A DNA stretch of 10,898 nucleotides. Origin: Candidatus Odinarchaeia archaeon (GTDB taxonomy: Archaea; Asgardarchaeota; Odinarchaeia; Odinarchaeales; Odinarchaeaceae). This document shows positions 1,976-10,534 of the stretch, piece by piece. The DNA is taken from the NCBI GenBank assembly GCA_029856525.1, contig JAHQXC010000043.1, forward strand, positions 1 through 10,898. Reading direction: 5' to 3'. Made by a program: the position numbers and the translations under genes. Under the pieces are notes generated by a model, which had not been told where the DNA came from, made no database searches, and saw nothing but the letters and a program-made list of their open reading frames with translations. The stretch's first letter is position 1, and the number at the start of each line of letters is the position of its first letter.

Positions 1976-2467
1976 ATGACCGATAACCCTCAGGCTTCAA
2001 AGAAGTATAAACTGGTTGCAGTAGGTGGTACATTTGATCATTTTCATAAAGGACATCAGTCTCTTTTAACCAAAGCGTTTTCAATAGGGGAAAAAGTTTT
2101 AGTAGGCGTAACATGCGATTCATTTTGTAGGTGTAAGCCTTTATCGAATGAGATTCAACCATTTTATCTAAGAAAGCGTAACATCCTAAATTTCATACGC
2201 GCGCATTTTAAAGACGCTGATTTCGAGATTATTGTTTTAAAAGATAAATACGGGCCAGCGATCTCAGATAAAAACATAGAGGCTATAATCGTAACCGAGC
2301 AGACGATTCAAACCGCCAAGGAGATTAATCAAATTAGAGTCAGTAAAGGTTTGAACCCTCTTGAAATAGTGGTTGTAGACATGGTTTTAGCTTACGATGG
2401 AAAACCTATATCATCTACGAGAATTAGAAGCGGCGAGATCACAGTTGACGGTGAAGCTGTTAGCTAA
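1976..2467 (+). CDS. coaD: phosphopantetheine adenylyltransferase (archaeal PPAT, cytidylyltransferase fold)
   Basis: VAVGGTFDHFHKGH (HxGH motif), D-x-YGPA, IEAIIVT-x-T and KPISSTRIRSGEI. GGAG RBS upstream. Confidence 0.9.
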   Translation: MTDNPQASKKYKLVAVGGTFDHFHKGHQSLLTKAFSIGEKVLVGVTCDSFCRCKPLSNEIQPFYLRKRNILNFIRAHFKDADFEIIVLKDKYGPAISDKNIEAIIVTEQTIQTAKEINQIRVSKGLNPLEIVVVDMVLAYDGKPISSTRIRSGEITVDGEAVS

Positions 2468-2475
2468 AGAATAAA

Positions 2476-2483
2476 TTTATATA
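2476..2483 (+). promoter_or_regulatory. TATA box (with purine-rich BRE upstream) for the stand-alone 5S rRNA precursor
   Basis: TTTATATA preceded by AAGAATAAA, 28 nt before the first base of the precursor stem at 2512. Confidence 0.7.
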
Positions 2484-2511: not shown

Positions 2512-2662
2512 TGGTAGTATCGCGTGAAAGTTAAGCTTCCGCGCGACTATATAAGTACTGTGGTGCGAGAGCCCACGGGAACATATAGTGCTGCCAGTTC
2601 GCTGGCGGCCATAGGCGGAAGGAAACACCCGTTCTCGTTTCGATCACGGAACGATACTACCA
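2512..2662 (+). repeat. precursor stem with BHB splicing motif flanking the permuted 5S rRNA
   Basis: Perfect 11-bp inverted repeat TGGTAGTATCG 2512-2522/CGATACTACCA 2652-2662; central 4-bp helix CGTG 2523-2526/CACG 2645-2648; 3-nt bulges AAA 2527-2529 and GAA 2649-2651; short inner helix GTT/GAT. Confidence 0.9.
2529..2650 (+). rRNA. rrf: 5S rRNA, circularly permuted gene (3' half 2529-2597, UUCG linker 2598-2601, 5' half 2602-2650)
   Basis: 5' half CTGGCGGCCATAGGCGGAAGGAAACACCCGTTCTCGTTTCGATCACGGA; 3' half AGTTAAGCTTCCGCGCGACTATATAAGTACTGTGGTGCGAGAGCCCACGGGAACATATAGTGCTGCCAG. All five helices pair. I: CTGCCAG 2591-2597/CTGGCGG 2602-2608. II: GCGGAAG 2615-2621/CTTCCGC 2536-2542. III: CCGT 2629-2632/ACGG 2646-2649. 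Loop-E-proximal helix: ACTATAT 2546-2552/ATATAGT 2583-2589. Terminal helix: CTGTGG/CCACGG capped by a GAGA tetraloop. Confidence 0.95.
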
Positions 2663-2663
2663 C

Positions 2664-2673
2664 TTATTCTTTT
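2664..2673 (+). terminator. T-rich archaeal terminator candidate for the 5S precursor
   Basis: TTATTCTTTT immediately after the precursor stem. Confidence 0.45.
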
Positions 2674-2729: not shown

Positions 2730-2898
2730 GGGGTCGTGGTCTAACCAGGTAGGACGACGGGCTCCAGAAACACTGCCTAAACGGCTGCTGACTTTACGGA
2801 TGAAGATATTCTGGAGCGTACCTGGAGAAACTCGTAAAAAGGATTTGAAAAATCCTTTTGAGGAGTGGTTAAGGGTTCAAATCCCTTCGACCCCACCA
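2730..2898 (+). tRNA. tRNA-Trp(CCA) with two introns (37/38: 2768-2829, 62 nt; 43/44: 2836-2865, 30 nt), CCA encoded
   Basis: Acceptor GGGGTCG/CGACCCC+ACCA, D stem GTCT/GGAC, anticodon stem ACGGG/CTCGT, anticodon CCA 2764-2766, T arm AAGGG-TTCAAAT-CCCTT. Removing both introns gives a normal 77-nt tRNA with variable loop TGGTT. Confidence 0.93.
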
Positions 2899-3327: not shown

Positions 3328-4059
3328 TTGGCTTATAGATTAGATTCTTCTCAGTTAGGATTAGAGAAAAAAGTCGTCTTGGAGACTGTTAACTTATCCC
3401 GATACTATAAACGCGGAGACCAGGTTATTAAAGCCTTAGATAATGTTAGCGTTAAAATATATCGAGGTGAGCCTACCGCTATTATGGGGCCTAGCGGTTC
3501 AGGTAAGACAACTTTTCTAAACTTAGTAGGGTTGCTGGATAAACCAACTTCAGGGTCGATATTAATTAACGGGCAGGATGTCACCTTAATGTCTAGTAAG
3601 CAGATAGTTGATTTAAGACGTCACACGATCGGATTCATATTTCAATTCTATAATTTAATTGATGTTTTAACAGCTAAAGAGAATGTTGAACTCCCTCTTC
3701 TCATAGCTGGGGTTAAAAAAAAGGAGAGAGCTCAAAGAACCGCGGCTCTTCTATCCCTGGTAGGTTTAAGCGATAGAGCGAATCATCTCCCAGATGAGCT
3801 TAGTGGAGGGGAACAGCAAAGAGTCGCTATCGCTAGAGCTTTAGTTAATAATCCTTCTCTTATCTTAGCTGATGAGCCTACAGGCGATTTAGACTCTAAA
3901 ACAGGTAGAATGGTGATGAAGATTCTTTTAGATTCTTGTAAGGAGCGTGATATCGGGCTGATCGTGGTGACTCATGATAGTGATATAGCTAATATGATGG
4001 ATAGAATACTATTTCTAAGAGACGGGCGGTTAATAGGGGAGAGTCGGCCTGGAAGCTGA
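3328..4059 (+). CDS. ABC transporter ATP-binding protein (LolD/MacB-like)
   Basis: Walker A GPSGSGKTT, Q-loop FIFQFYNL, signature LSGGEQQRVAIARAL, Walker B/D-loop ILADEPTGDLD, H-loop VVTHD. TTG start with AGGTGA RBS. Confidence 0.95.
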   Translation: MAYRLDSSQLGLEKKVVLETVNLSRYYKRGDQVIKALDNVSVKIYRGEPTAIMGPSGSGKTTFLNLVGLLDKPTSGSILINGQDVTLMSSKQIVDLRRHTIGFIFQFYNLIDVLTAKENVELPLLIAGVKKKERAQRTAALLSLVGLSDRANHLPDELSGGEQQRVAIARALVNNPSLILADEPTGDLDSKTGRMVMKILLDSCKERDIGLIVVTHDSDIANMMDRILFLRDGRLIGESRPGS

Positions 4060-4071
4060 GTGTGATCTCGT

Positions 4072-6696
4072 TTGGGGTTACTGAAAACTAGTCTACGAAC
4101 TGTTAAGAAGAGAAAATCAAGGGCGGCGTTAATTATAATATGTATTACTATAGGTGTAGCTGTTTTCGCAGGGGCTAATGTAGGCGCCGACGGTGTTGAA
4201 AACGCGTATGTCACTCGCTTATTATCAACTTTCGGAGACGTTGATTTAACTCTCTCTAATAGCTCAAACCCACTTTACTCTATTCAATATAATCAATCTT
4301 TATTAAGCCAGCTTTTGAATACCCCTCATGTAGAAGCAGTCGCTCCGCGAATATCAACGCTTCAAACCTTCTGGTTTAATTCAACAGGCAATAATACACT
4401 TCTACTAATAGGAATCGATAATATATTAGACAACCAATTCGGGTCTGTAACACCGCCCGGTTTAGTTAATCAACTTCACGGTAACAACTGTATAATAAAT
4501 CAGGTTGCAGCTGAAATATTCAATCTTACATCCGGTGAGAATATAGGGTTATATAGTCCGTTAATAGGGGTCAATGAGACAGTTCACATAATCGGCGTAG
4601 GAGTTTTTCAAGGTAAGTTTTCAGTTGAAAAATCAACTCCCATAATTGTTTTAAACATAGAGTTCATACAAAGCTTATTTCATTTAGAAAATCAGGCTAC
4701 TGAAATAGTTTTAAAAATTGACAGTTACAGGAATATTGAAACAGTTATAAATAATCTCAGAAATATATACGGGGATAAATTCACCTATTACTCGCAGAAA
4801 CTTGAAGCTTTAGAGAAATCAGAGTCTAATATATTAGTTTTAAGAGGCGCTTTAAACATTTTTTCAATACTCGCGTTAATAGTCACATTTGTTTTAATTA
4901 TAGTAGTTATGCTTATGAATATCTCTGAGAGAAAACGCGATTTAGGGATAATGAGATCTATAGGCGCCTCCACTAGACAAATCTTCTCTTATGTTATTAT
5001 TGAAACCTTACTATACGGTTTAATCGGCTCCACTGTAGGCACATTAACAGGGATATTTCTAAGCACATACATGTTAGATTTTCTAGGCGCGGCTATTTCA
5101 ACTATCACCACTCTAGGAGAATTGTCGATTATATTAAACCCTGTAACGTTAATCACATGCTTTTCAACAGGTATGATTATAGTATTATTAGCAGGTAATA
5201 TTCCGGCGATAGCCGCGACTAGAATCACAATATTAGAAACCTTCAGACCGAAGATGAAAGGGATAGCAAGAGTTAACGTGCTTAAAAAAAGCCTTATACT
5301 AGGTGTAATCCTCTTGATTTCAGGCTCGATTACCTTGTATCTACTCGGCGGCGGTATGATATTAACAGGCAACTTCACTCCTATACTCCTCTCAACCGCG
5401 CTTATAACAGCTGGTTTAATTATTTTTTTCAGTTCATCCCTATACTATGTTTCCAGAGGCGTCTCCACAATTTTTAAACCGTTGTTAAAAGAGTCTAAAG
5501 CTATTATCGAGAGGTATATTGCTCGTAACAGAACTAGGACAACTTTCACGTTCACGATGGTGGCGATTGGAATAGTATTCGTAATATTTTTCAGCTCACT
5601 TGCAGTAACGTTTACAGCGACATTCTCCACAGTTATCCGCGTGTTCACAGGCAGCGATATTAAAATGCAGGTGAACCCGGCGGTTAACTATAATTTCACA
5701 GCTGAGCTGCGCACGCTACCGGGTGTTCAAGCTGTTTCACCAAGCTATGAAAGCTGGTGTACAATTACAGGCGAAGATTTTAAAATAGCCTTAATATTCA
5801 TAGACCCTGATTCATTTCTAGATGTTTATCCGAGGATAAATACTGCAAGCGGTCCAGCTATCGAAGACGCTCTTAACACTCTTAAATCAGTTAATAAAAC
5901 AATAATTCTAGCTAAAAAAGCAGCGGATCTTCTAAATTTAACTGTCGGCGACACTATAACATTGAATGTTAAAAATATAAACGGTTCAACCACACCGATA
6001 GACTTCAATATAGTAGCGCTCGTTGAACAATTCTACGGTTACCCTCAATACATGTTTAATATAAGAGCCTTCGGAGATATTTACGGCGCTTATATATCTA
6101 TATCTCAGTTAGAGGATGTTATCGGTACTTCAAACGTGGAGGTCTTCTTTATAAAGCTTCAAACCGGAGTCGATCAAATTCAAGTTAAAAACGAGTTAGA
6201 GAATATTTTAAGCCCTAGATTTGAGAGCCTAACTTTAATATCGGCTAGAGAGTGGGAGAATCAAATTTCCTCAATCATAGAAAGCTTCTCAAATGTAGTC
6301 TATTTCTTTGTAGGGTTCTCGTTTATCGTAGCAGCTATAGGCATCGGCATAATCATGATTGTAGCTGTTTCAGAGAGGAGACAGGAGATTGGGATACTGA
6401 AAGCTATTGGGATGAGTAGAAAACAGGTTCTGAAACTCGTGGTCTGTGAAGCTGTTATAATCACGGTGATAGGTTTAATTGTCGGTATAGGCGGCGGTCT
6501 ATATCTTTGGTTTCTTTTCTTAAATAGAATAGTGTCAACAGCTTCCAACTTATTCTTCGAACTCCCTTTTATAATACCTGTTAATATAATAATTTATATG
6601 ATTGTTACAGGTGTGCTCATAGCTTTAGCAGCTTCAGCTTACCCTGCTTATAGAGCCATGAAATTAGAGGTAATCGATGCTTTACGCCGAGAGTGA
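4072..6696 (+). CDS. ABC transporter permease, FtsX/MacB family (duplicated extracellular + FtsX module)
   Basis: 874 aa, 12 nt after the ATPase. Two ER(K/R)x(D/E)xGIx(R/K)xIG FtsX motifs, two large extracellular domains, multiple TM helices. Confidence 0.9.
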   Translation: MGLLKTSLRTVKKRKSRAALIIICITIGVAVFAGANVGADGVENAYVTRLLSTFGDVDLTLSNSSNPLYSIQYNQSLLSQLLNTPHVEAVAPRISTLQTFWFNSTGNNTLLLIGIDNILDNQFGSVTPPGLVNQLHGNNCIINQVAAEIFNLTSGENIGLYSPLIGVNETVHIIGVGVFQGKFSVEKSTPIIVLNIEFIQSLFHLENQATEIVLKIDSYRNIETVINNLRNIYGDKFTYYSQKLEALEKSESNILVLRGALNIFSILALIVTFVLIIVVMLMNISERKRDLGIMRSIGASTRQIFSYVIIETLLYGLIGSTVGTLTGIFLSTYMLDFLGAAISTITTLGELSIILNPVTLITCFSTGMIIVLLAGNIPAIAATRITILETFRPKMKGIARVNVLKKSLILGVILLISGSITLYLLGGGMILTGNFTPILLSTALITAGLIIFFSSSLYYVSRGVSTIFKPLLKESKAIIERYIARNRTRTTFTFTMVAIGIVFVIFFSSLAVTFTATFSTVIRVFTGSDIKMQVNPAVNYNFTAELRTLPGVQAVSPSYESWCTITGEDFKIALIFIDPDSFLDVYPRINTASGPAIEDALNTLKSVNKTIILAKKAADLLNLTVGDTITLNVKNINGSTTPIDFNIVALVEQFYGYPQYMFNIRAFGDIYGAYISISQLEDVIGTSNVEVFFIKLQTGVDQIQVKNELENILSPRFESLTLISAREWENQISSIIESFSNVVYFFVGFSFIVAAIGIGIIMIVAVSERRQEIGILKAIGMSRKQVLKLVVCEAVIITVIGLIVGIGGGLYLWFLFLNRIVSTASNLFFELPFIIPVNIIIYMIVTGVLIALAASAYPAYRAMKLEVIDALRRE

Positions 6697-10385: not shown

Positions 10386-10534
10386 TGGTCCCGCCGACCG
10401 GATTTGAACCGGCGACCCTTCTCGCAGGTTTTCTGAAACCTGTCTCGGTTTCTGCTGTATGAGCCTCGGTTGAAATAATTTAACCGTTCGGTTAAATTCT
10501 ACAGCCGAGTGCTCTGCCACTAAGCTACGGCGGG
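10386..10534 (-). tRNA. tRNA-Tyr(GUA) with two introns (37/38: 10450-10498, 49 nt; 43/44: 10419-10443, 25 nt), CCA encoded
   Basis: Minus strand: acceptor CCCGCCG/CGGCGGG+ACCA (C1-G72, A73, the archaeal Tyr identity), anticodon stem CTCGG/CCGAG, anticodon GTA 10502-10500, T arm GCCGG-TTCAAAT-CCGGT. The spliced product is 75 nt with variable loop GGGTC. Confidence 0.92.

What the first reader, a model, noticed from the sequence alone, without database searches (positions are those of the whole stretch)
2512..2662. Circularly permuted 5S rRNA gene with a BHB motif predicting a spliced, covalently closed circular 5S rRNA
Seen: the 3' half of a 5S rRNA (2529-2597) lies upstream of the 5' half (2602-2650). 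The usual 5' and 3' ends of helix I are fused by a TTCG tetraloop. The break point falls in the conserved AA bulge of helix III. The unit is enclosed by an 11-bp stem and a BHB motif (CGTG/CACG helix, AAA and GAA bulges), and has its own TATA box and T-rich terminator. Established: the archaeal splicing endonuclease EndA cuts after the second nucleotide of each bulge and RtcB ligates. Applying that rule (2528|2529 and 2650|2651) releases 2529-2650, and ligation gives ...GAUCACGGA|AGUUAAGC..., the canonical 5S sequence, as a 122-nt circle with all five helices intact. Precedents are the permuted, circularised SRP RNA of Thermoproteus and permuted tRNAs. I am not aware of a described permuted 5S rRNA gene. 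Inference: the ribosomes of this organism carry a circular, end-less 5S rRNA whose production depends on tRNA-splicing machinery.
Basis: partly seen in the sequence, partly recalled or inferred. Interest (0 to 1): 0.97.

Follow-up and report, generated by a model that had tools for sequence, protein, structure and literature searches.

The report
Back-to-front 5S rRNA gene, circularised
This Odinarchaeon, like most Asgard archaea sampled, encodes its only detectable 5S ribosomal RNA gene with the two halves swapped between tRNA-intron-type cut signals, so a normal 5S can form only by cutting and re-joining the transcript into a 122-nt ring, and that joint is present in public RNA data from a related Asgard lineage.

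Summary
Window 2529-2597 is the 3' part of a 5S rRNA and 2602-2650 is the 5' part. Helix I is capped by UUCG. The unit sits between an 11-bp stem and a strict bulge-helix-bulge (BHB) motif.

No other 5S match exists in this genome or in a closed genome of the same genus. The same layout occurs in 88 of 151 sampled Asgard genomes. It is mutually exclusive with canonical 5S genes. Ten of the 11 outer-stem pairs show compensatory changes.

Re-joining the two cut ends in silico gives one end-to-end match to canonical Asgard 5S (72 bits).

New here: on a Freyarchaeia relative's locus, contigs from four metatranscriptomes cover only the predicted 122 nt. Each carries a "goes back 122" joint at the predicted place. 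So cutting and joining does happen in RNA, in a relative.

Not shown: that the ring, rather than a re-opened form, is what sits in ribosomes, and any RNA evidence for this organism itself.

I found no paper describing this. One paper on closed Heimdallarchaeum genomes states that 5S genes could not be predicted. This scan has noted the same layout before on other DNA (61 notes, at least 54 genomes).

The parts
2476..2483 (+). TATA-box-like TTTATATA, about 30 nt upstream of the outer stem; candidate promoter of the unit
   Evidence: Read. A TTATATA-type motif lies at a similar distance upstream of the unit in relatives of other lineages (flanks printed). The function is inferred.
2512..2522 (+). 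Outer processing stem, 5' strand (pairs with 2652-2662)
   Evidence: 11 contiguous pairs. 10 of 11 pairs show changes on both sides among 15 distinct units.
2523..2526 (+). BHB central helix, 5' strand CGUG (pairs with CACG 2645-2648)
   Evidence: Invariant in the 15 units of alignment A1 although it lies outside the mature 5S. Strict BHB scan.
2527..2529 (+). 5' bulge AAA; predicted EndA cut 2528|2529
   Evidence: In relatives the second bulge nucleotide, which is outside the ring, varies A/G. The third, which is inside the ring, is always A.
2529..2650 (+). Predicted excised and circularised 5S rRNA, 122 nt
   Evidence: The circular fold gives five helices. The re-joined sequence matches a canonical Asgard 5S profile end to end at 72.0 bits. 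The homologous 122-nt ring is seen in RNA contigs of a Freyarchaeia relative.
2529..2597 (+). 3' part of 5S: second A of the helix III bulge, 3' strands of helices III and II, helices V and IV, 3' strand of helix I
   Evidence: Rfam partial match; canonical profile positions 49-119.
2598..2601 (+). UUCG cap joining the usual 3' and 5' ends of helix I
   Evidence: The cap is 3-5 nt in all 43 units scored and is UNCG in 28 of them.
2602..2650 (+). 5' part of 5S: 5' strand of helix I, loop A, 5' strand of helix II, helix III hairpin up to the first A of the bulge
   Evidence: Rfam partial match; canonical profile positions 3-50.
2645..2648 (+). BHB central helix, 3' strand CACG. In the mature fold, 2646-2649 (three of these four nucleotides plus G2649) pair within helix III.
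2649..2651 (+). 3' bulge GAA; predicted EndA cut 2650|2651
   Evidence: The third bulge nucleotide, which is outside the ring, varies A/U in relatives, while GA is invariant.
2652..2662 (+). Outer processing stem, 3' strand
2664..2673 (+). T-rich run TTATTCTTTT; candidate archaeal terminator
   Evidence: Read. The function is inferred.

Best explanation
Window 2512-2662 is the only detectable 5S rRNA gene of an Odinarchaeia-type Asgard archaeon, and it is circularly permuted.

Proposed pathway:
1. The gene is transcribed from its own TATA promoter.
2. The transcript folds so that an 11-bp stem and a 4-bp helix present two 3-nt bulges, forming a BHB motif.
3. The tRNA-splicing endonuclease EndA, here a two-subunit type, cuts after the second nucleotide of each bulge (2528|2529 and 2650|2651).
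4. RtcB joins the ends of the released piece.
5. The product is a 122-nt covalently closed RNA with the joint ...CACGGA|AGUUAAGC..., which restores the AA bulge of helix III and all five 5S helices.

Basis of each step:
- Shown here: the gene order, the BHB, its conservation and covariation, and the absence of any other 5S gene.
- Shown in a relative: the joint exists in RNA as a closed 122-nt cycle.
- Inferred: that EndA and RtcB are the enzymes, that the same happens in this organism, and that the ring itself is the form built into ribosomes. I put that last point at about 0.55-0.6.
For: - Gene anatomy.
- Sole 5S locus: no other RF00001 match in this genome, which is 93% complete. In the closed same-genus genome G002 only the two half-matches at the homologous locus appear.
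- Real DNA order: the locus is 96-98% identical in three other Odin assemblies. The layout is also present in complete chromosomes of Atabeyarchaeia and Freyarchaeia, which were validated by long reads according to PMC11291895.
- Distribution: covariance model R1 of the permuted unit hits 88 of 151 sampled Asgard genomes. RF00001 passes its cut-off in 49 others. No genome has both. The one apparent exception, G110, is a 38-bit hit lying on a permuted copy.
- Covariation: 36 of 51 pairs overall, 10 of 11 in the outer stem and 6 of 8 in helix I.
- Conservation fits the cut sites. The variable bulge positions are exactly those left outside the ring. In other families the BHB is shifted by one nucleotide, cutting GGAA|GU, yet it gives the same product.
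- RNA: on Freyarchaeia locus L020, contigs of 4 RNA runs from 4 studies cover only 2553-2675, with nothing in the flanks. Each has a joint 'goes back 122' with 2 ambiguous letters that include the predicted site. Contig lengths of 151-152 equal 122 plus 29-30, as expected if a 122-nt cycle is written out once by an assembler using 31-letter words; that word length is my assumption.
- Enzymes: two EndA paralogues (188 and 187 aa, each with both domains) and RtcB.
- The helix I cap is 3-5 nt everywhere and mostly UNCG. That argues the cap is part of the working RNA.
- An engineered E. coli 5S with its native ends closed by a tetraloop works in ribosomes (PMC7283268).
Against: - No RNA run holds this organism's locus. 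The RNA evidence comes from another Asgard class.
- The laid data are assembler contigs. They show that joint-spanning and cap-spanning words both exist in RNA, but not that one molecule holds both, and not in what proportions.
- The BHB inner helix is weak here (3 pairs, two of them G-U) and absent in many relatives, so the motif is of the relaxed kind.
- RtcB in this assembly carries an intein and is cut off by a contig end.
[quoted passage not shown] By analogy this ring could be an intermediate.
- The genome is a 127-contig draft, so a second 5S gene cannot be formally excluded for this assembly itself.
Confidence: 0.82

Rival explanations
1. The ring is only a processing intermediate. After ligation it is re-opened, at the helix I cap or elsewhere, and ribosomes carry a linear 5S. 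This would parallel permuted tRNA genes of Cyanidioschyzon and the circular pre-16S/23S rRNAs of archaea.
For: - Circular pre-rRNAs of archaea are generally thought to be re-linearised (PMC12918454).
- Permuted tRNAs mature through a circular intermediate (Soma et al. 2007, as cited in PMC4267664).
- Contig-level RNA data cannot exclude a mixture of forms.
Against: - The helix I cap is only 3-5 nt and is a UNCG-type stable tetraloop in 28 of 43 units. There is no spacer or recognisable processing signal.
- RNA contigs contain both the cap and the joint while the flanks have no cover.
- Circular 23S rRNA in mature ribosomes (PMC12918454) and the circular SRP RNA of Thermoproteus (PMC4731332) show that rings can be end products.
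Confidence: 0.25
2. The transcript is cut at the BHB but not ligated. The working 5S is a linear, permuted molecule with its ends in the helix III bulge and helix I capped.
For: - Brown-algal mitochondrial 5S is permuted in the final product (PMC4267664).
- A nick in an unpaired bulge could be tolerated structurally. This is inference.
Against: - The joint is present in RNA contigs of four runs.
- RtcB is encoded.
- The joined sequence GGAAGU is conserved even where the BHB register shifts by one nucleotide.
Confidence: 0.05
3. The locus is a rearranged pseudogene or an assembly artefact, and a canonical 5S gene elsewhere supplies the ribosomes.
For: - The draft genome is 93% complete in 127 contigs.
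- rRNA genes often fail to assemble in MAGs.
Against: - The same order occurs in four Odin assemblies, in single-contig genomes of relatives, and in complete Atabeyarchaeia and Freyarchaeia chromosomes.
- No canonical match exists in G002, G017, G027, G029, G040 or G073, all single contigs.
- Covariation is strong.
- The locus is expressed and joined in a relative.
Confidence: 0.02

Closest known systems
Permuted, circularised SRP RNA of Thermoproteus tenax (Plagens et al. 2015, eLife; PMC4731332)
   Same: A permuted gene for a universal structured RNA. Its termini lie in a motif cut by the tRNA-splicing endonuclease, and ligation gives a functional circular RNA. In both cases the gene had been 'missing' from annotation.
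   Different: A different RNA (SRP versus ribosomal 5S). The SRP case is confined to some Thermoproteus species, whereas this layout spans most Asgard families sampled. For SRP RNA, the ring's function and EndA cleavage were shown at the bench. Here neither has been.
Circular pre-16S/pre-23S rRNA, circular mature 23S, and circularly permuted 23S of Pyrococcus/Thermococcus (PMC12918454, PMC7758197)
   Same: BHB in a processing stem, EndA cleavage, and ligation to a ring. Some rings are kept in ribosomes.
   Different: Those genes are co-linear with the RNA, and the ring merely joins native ends. Here the gene itself is permuted, so ligation is needed to create the 5S sequence. PMC12918454 explicitly excludes 5S from this pathway.
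Circularly permuted tRNA genes of Cyanidioschyzon merolae (Soma et al. 2007, cited in PMC4267664)
   Same: The 3' half is encoded before the 5' half, with a BHB-type junction and a circular RNA stage.
   Different: The tRNA ring is re-opened to give a linear tRNA. The organism is a eukaryotic alga. In the 5S case no spacer is available for re-opening.
Permuted mitochondrial 5S rRNA of brown algae (Valach et al. 2014; PMC4267664)
   Same: A 5S rRNA whose helix I is replaced by a closed hairpin, so that the ends lie elsewhere.
   Different: In brown algae the ends lie at the three-way junction, there is no BHB and no ligation, and the product is linear and permuted. That system is organellar.
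Engineered cp5S rRNA in E. coli (Huang et al. 2020; PMC7283268)
   Same: The native 5S ends are closed by a tetraloop and the molecule still works in ribosomes.
   Different: It is artificial. The new ends lie in loop C or D and are fused to 23S rRNA. It is not a free ring.
Heterogeneous circular RNAs from canonical 5S genes in Sulfolobus and Halobacterium (PMC12558985, citing Danan et al. 2012)
   Same: Circular RNA molecules containing 5S sequence in archaea.
   Different: They have variable ends, come from co-linear genes, and are interpreted as linked to degradation. They are not needed to build the 5S sequence.

Membership tests
5S rRNA (Rfam RF00001) | Full-length match over the family's gathering score (38 bits) | tested here: not met
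   In genomic order there are two partial matches of 34.5 and 19.1 bits. This is expected for a permuted gene. I could not hand the re-joined sequence to Infernal.
5S rRNA (Rfam RF00001) | End-to-end sequence homology to canonical 5S once the two cut ends are joined | tested here: met
   nhmmer with a profile of 14 canonical Asgard 5S genes gives one hit over profile positions 3-119, 72.0 bits, E 3.7e-24. The genomic order gives two hits instead.
5S rRNA (Rfam RF00001) | Five helices around a three-way junction, supported by covariation | tested here: met
   Circular MFE folds of 15 units. Helices I, II, IV and V each have 6-7 pairs with compensatory changes. Helix III is nearly invariant.
5S rRNA (Rfam RF00001) | Incorporated in the large ribosomal subunit | not testable with these tools
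   Needs ribosome preparation or cryo-EM.
Archaeal BHB splice motif (hBHBh') | 4-bp central helix flanked by two 3-nt bulges on opposite strands | tested here: met
   CGUG/CACG with bulges AAA and GAA. A strict motif with a stacked outer helix of at least 4 pairs is present in 34 of the 44 units listed.
Archaeal BHB splice motif (hBHBh') | Outer helix stacked on the central helix | tested here: met
   11 bp here and 4-13 bp in relatives. 10 of 11 pairs are compensatory.
Archaeal BHB splice motif (hBHBh') | Inner helix h' next to the bulges | tested here: inconclusive
   3 pairs here (G-U, U-A, U-G) and none in many relatives. This is a relaxed motif. The genome has two EndA paralogues. From my own knowledge, two-subunit crenarchaeal enzymes accept relaxed motifs.
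Archaeal BHB splice motif (hBHBh') | Cleavage by EndA at the second/third bulge nucleotide | not testable with these tools
   In a relative, the ring length of 122 and the joint position within 2 ambiguous letters agree with the rule. The enzyme itself was not tested.
Permuted RNA genes matured by BHB splicing into a ring (Thermoproteus SRP RNA type) | 3' part encoded upstream of 5' part, native ends fused | tested here: met
Permuted RNA genes matured by BHB splicing into a ring (Thermoproteus SRP RNA type) | Joint-spanning RNA observed | tested here: met
   Met for a Freyarchaeia homologue in 4 RNA runs. Not testable for this organism, because no RNA holder exists.
Permuted RNA genes matured by BHB splicing into a ring (Thermoproteus SRP RNA type) | The ring is the functional end product | not testable with these tools
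   Indirect support only: the short UNCG caps and closed-cycle contigs without flank cover.

The most novel reading that the evidence does not exclude
In most Asgard archaea, including the Heimdallarchaeum lineage, the ribosome's mature 5S rRNA is a covalently closed ring without ends. It is made from a permuted gene by the tRNA-splicing enzymes. The permutation happened once, at the same helix III bulge, early in Asgard evolution, so a core ribosomal RNA depends on EndA and RtcB. A few lineages keep, or returned to, a co-linear gene.
Probability: 0.5. Interest if true: 0.95.

Novelty: new variant of a known kind. Interest (0 to 1): 0.9.

Why it matters
- **A universal molecule in a new form.** 5S rRNA is normally a free linear RNA of about 120 nt encoded co-linearly. 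A recent paper on archaeal rRNA circularisation explicitly leaves 5S out (PMC12918454). Here the gene cannot give a 5S at all without cutting and re-joining.
- **It is widespread.** The layout is the rule, not the exception, across the Asgard families sampled.
[quoted passage not shown] Two single-contig genomes of matching size each carry two permuted copies.
- **Practical consequences.** Standard annotation and MAG quality rules that ask for a 5S gene under-call Asgard genomes. A permuted covariance model fixes that.
- **Biological consequences.** Ribosome assembly becomes dependent on the tRNA-splicing machinery. This adds a ribosomal RNA to the short list of natural functional RNA rings. 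It also raises the question of which state the archaeal ancestor of eukaryotes had.

Tried and rejected
- **RNA runs for the window itself.** No RNA holder is listed; there are only DNA holders, one of which is probably the source sample. This says nothing about expression.
- **ARAGORN on the window.** It found no tRNA, although Rfam finds two intron-bearing tRNAs.
- **Naming the families with canonical 5S (f6, f12, f16 and others).** Only the lineages named, and the size match to Heimdallarchaeum, can be stated.
- **Literature.** Six completed full-text searches found no description of a permuted or BHB-circularised archaeal 5S. A seventh, on Lokiarchaeum and Promethearchaeum ribosome structure, turned up no Asgard ribosome structure paper that mentions 5S. 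Subscription journals are not covered.
- **Misassembly or pseudogene reading.** Rejected; see the rival explanations.
- **The sigma-70 promoter and terminator scanner.** Not used, because it does not model archaeal signals.
- **Depth differences between contigs in run X23.** Not used to estimate the ring-to-linear ratio, because contig depths are not local.

Full report
**1. What is in the sequence.**

The region 2470-2680 reads, in order:
- TTTATATA (2476-2483)
- an 11-nt strand (2512-2522)
- CGTG (2523-2526)
- AAA (2527-2529)
- 5S-like sequence up to 2648
- GAA (2649-2651)
- the exact complement of the 11-nt strand (2652-2662)
- a T-rich run (2664-2673)

Rfam's 5S model does not reach its cut-off anywhere in the window. 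With permissive thresholds it matches twice. The 3' part of the model matches at 2510-2599 (34.5 bits) and the 5' part from 2601 (19.1 bits).

A profile of 14 canonical Asgard 5S genes splits the same way. Profile positions 49-119 lie at 2528-2598 and positions 3-50 at 2603-2651. When 2601-2650 is placed in front of 2529-2600, one end-to-end hit results: positions 3-119, 72.0 bits, E 3.7e-24.

Helix I (2590-2597 with 2602-2609) is capped by UUCG. Folded as a circle, 2529-2650 gives the 5S three-way junction with all five helices, and so do the homologous pieces of 14 relatives. The linear region folds with z = -5.5 against shuffles.

**2. The BHB.**

On the 5' strand the outer stem runs straight into CGUG, followed by the bulge AAA. 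On the 3' strand CACG is followed by the bulge GAA and then the outer stem. This is the geometry of an archaeal tRNA intron, with the 5S in the place of the intron.

A strict scan required a 4-bp helix, 3-nt bulges and a stacked outer helix. It finds exactly this solution here, with 11 outer pairs. Under the established rule that EndA cuts after the second bulge nucleotide (knowledge of the family, not tested here), the released piece is 2529-2650. That is 122 nt, with the joint CACGGA|AGUUAAGC.

The inner helix is weak, with three pairs of which two are G-U. The motif is therefore of the relaxed kind.

The genome encodes two EndA paralogues of 188 and 187 aa, each with both endonuclease domains. 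It also encodes RtcB. The RtcB gene carries an intein and runs off its contig. A full RtcB is present in the closed same-genus genome.

**3. Is it the real and only 5S gene?**

- The genome (1.32 Mb, 127 contigs, 93% complete) has no other RF00001 match even at E 10.
- The closed same-genus genome G002 has only the two half-matches at the homologous locus.
- The locus is 96-98% identical in three other assemblies of the genus.

**4. Relatives.**

A pattern that can match only the permuted order found 16 loci among one genome per species of 185,579 species. All 16 are Asgard: Odinarchaeota, Jordarchaeia, Freyarchaeia, Atabeyarchaeia, Baldrarchaeia, Asgardarchaeum and unnamed Promethearchaeota.

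Fifteen distinct units were aligned (A1). On the combined structure of outer stem plus mature 5S:
- 93.4% of cells pair, against 36-47% when partners are slid.
- 36 of 51 pairs have changes on both sides.
- This includes 10 of 11 outer-stem pairs and 6 of 8 helix I pairs.

The CGUG strand, which is not part of the 5S, is invariant in A1. In the bulges only the nucleotides predicted to stay outside the ring vary: A[A/G]|A and GA|[A/U].

A covariance model of the unit (R1) hits 88 of 151 genomes drawn evenly from the phylum. RF00001 passes its cut-off in 49 of them. The two sets are complementary by family:
- Canonical gene: f6 26/26, f12 17/19, f16 3/5.
- Permuted gene: f4 14/14, f7 5/5, f9 21/25, f13 3/3, f14 4/4, f17 5/5, f19 5/6, f20 6/7, f21 7/7, plus the Odin families.

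No genome has both. The 38-bit RF00001 hit in G110 lies on a permuted copy. The roughly 30-bit R1 hits in two f12 genomes lie on or beside their canonical genes.

Lower-scoring hits were read by eye and are permuted as well.

In several families the BHB is shifted by one nucleotide: the helix is CUGG or CCGG with UCAG or CCGG, the bulges are AAG and AAA, and the cut is GGAA|GU. The product is the same GGAAGU joint. Selection therefore acts on the joined RNA.

**5. RNA evidence.**

No RNA run holds the Odin window. I therefore used the Freyarchaeia chromosome locus L020, where the predicted ring is 2675 to 2554 on the minus strand.

Contigs of four metatranscriptome runs were laid on it: one soil run and three peat runs, from four studies. 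The results:
- They cover only 2553-2675, with no cover in 70-85 nt of flank on either side.
- Each run has a contig with a joint 'goes back 122'. Two ambiguous letters include the predicted site.
- The contigs are 151-152 nt long, that is 122 plus 29-30. This is what a closed cycle gives if the assembler uses 31-letter words, which I assume here.

The absence of flank cover argues against DNA carry-over. So the joint exists in RNA and the ring length is as the BHB rule predicts.

Limits of this evidence:
- It comes from a relative in another class.
- Contigs do not show that a single molecule holds both joint and cap, and they do not give proportions.

**6. Ring as end product or as intermediate?**

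In favour of the ring:
- The cap on helix I is 3-5 nt in all 43 units scored. It is UNCG in 28 (UUCG 20, UACG 5, UGCG 3). There is no spacer to process.
- An engineered E. coli 5S with capped native ends is functional (PMC7283268).
- Circular SRP RNA (PMC4731332) and circular 23S rRNA (PMC12918454) are precedents for rings as end products.

Against:
- The usual fate of circular pre-rRNAs is re-opening.
- There are no read-level data.

I put the mature-ring reading at about 0.55-0.6. I put the cut-and-join step for this organism at about 0.85.

**7. Literature.**

Full-text searches found no description of a permuted or BHB-circularised archaeal 5S. Related work:
- Permuted mitochondrial 5S (PMC4267664).
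- Heterogeneous 5S circRNAs from co-linear genes (PMC12558985).
- Circular or permuted 23S.
- PMC12918454 says that 5S does not take the circularisation route.

Wu et al. 2022 wrote that 5S genes could not be predicted in their closed Heimdallarchaeum genomes of 3.32 and 3.08 Mbp. Two single-contig genomes of one genus in my sample measure 3,326,783 and 3,081,793 bp, and each has two permuted copies. The identity of these genomes with theirs is inferred from size only.

**8. Earlier notes of this scan.**

The same layout has been noted before on other DNA: 61 notes in at least 54 genomes. A later check priced the 'ring is the ribosomal 5S' reading at 35/100. I scored on what I tested. A word search of the earlier notes for joint-spanning RNA evidence returned nothing.

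**9. Verdict.**

The final claim of an end-less 5S in ribosomes is plausible but unproven. The kind of mechanism is known from the Thermoproteus SRP RNA. Its use for a ribosomal RNA across most of a phylum is not described in the papers I could search.

Noticed in passing
window 2730-2895 (+): A tRNA gene 68 nt downstream of the 5S unit, with two inserts: 66 nt in the anticodon arm region and 31 nt before the T arm. Rfam scores it at 41.2 bits and ARAGORN misses it. It has its own AT-rich upstream region.
   Followed up: partly
window 10389-10534 (-): A second tRNA gene with two inserts, 52 nt and about 26 nt (Rfam 47.3 bits). It fits the intron-rich tRNA sets reported for Asgard archaea (PMC11291895).
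   Followed up: no
L010:1487-1675 (-), L013:1487-1675 (-), L108:48-233 (-): Atabeyarchaeia 1 and 2 and one Heimdall-family copy carry a 29-32-nt insert between the outer stem and the 5S. After the first cut-and-join the insert forms a textbook BHB intron: helix CACG/CGUG or CCUG/CGGG, 3-nt bulges, and an inner helix of 3-11 bp. Its removal restores the usual GGA|AGUUAAG joint. This could reflect two-step splicing or alternative pairing.
   Followed up: partly
L101, L102, L103 (family f9) and L104: Some permuted 5S units of family f9 carry an insert of about 30 nt in loop C of helix III. One (L104) has about 36 nt in the helix IV loop. These could be expansion segments or further introns.
   Followed up: no
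A1 and A2 units, e.g. L096:51-200 (-): The BHB register differs by one nucleotide between lineages. The cut is GGA|AGU with helix CGUG/CACG in some, and GGAA|GU with helix CUGG/UCAG or CCGG/CCGG in others. The joined product is the same.
   Followed up: yes
G029, G073, G008, G085 (two copies each), G110 (four): Several genomes carry more than one permuted 5S copy. In family f4 one copy has the 5' insert and the other does not.
   Followed up: partly
L093:1-1311 (-) (own genome, contig C95): The RtcB gene of this genome is interrupted after about residue 50 of the Pfam model by an intein with a LAGLIDADG domain. It then runs off the contig end. The same-genus closed genome has an uninterrupted match to the whole RtcB model within an open frame of 491 aa.
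   Followed up: partly
L094:1429-1995 (-), L095:1474-2037 (-) (own genome): Two paralogous tRNA-splicing endonuclease subunits (188 and 187 aa), each with N- and C-terminal domains. This suggests a two-subunit enzyme.
   Followed up: partly
window 1976-2467 (+), 3328-4059 (+), 4072-6696 (+): Neighbouring genes are a cytidylyltransferase-like protein upstream, and an ABC ATPase followed by a MacB/FtsX-type permease downstream. There is no functional link to the 5S unit.
   Followed up: no
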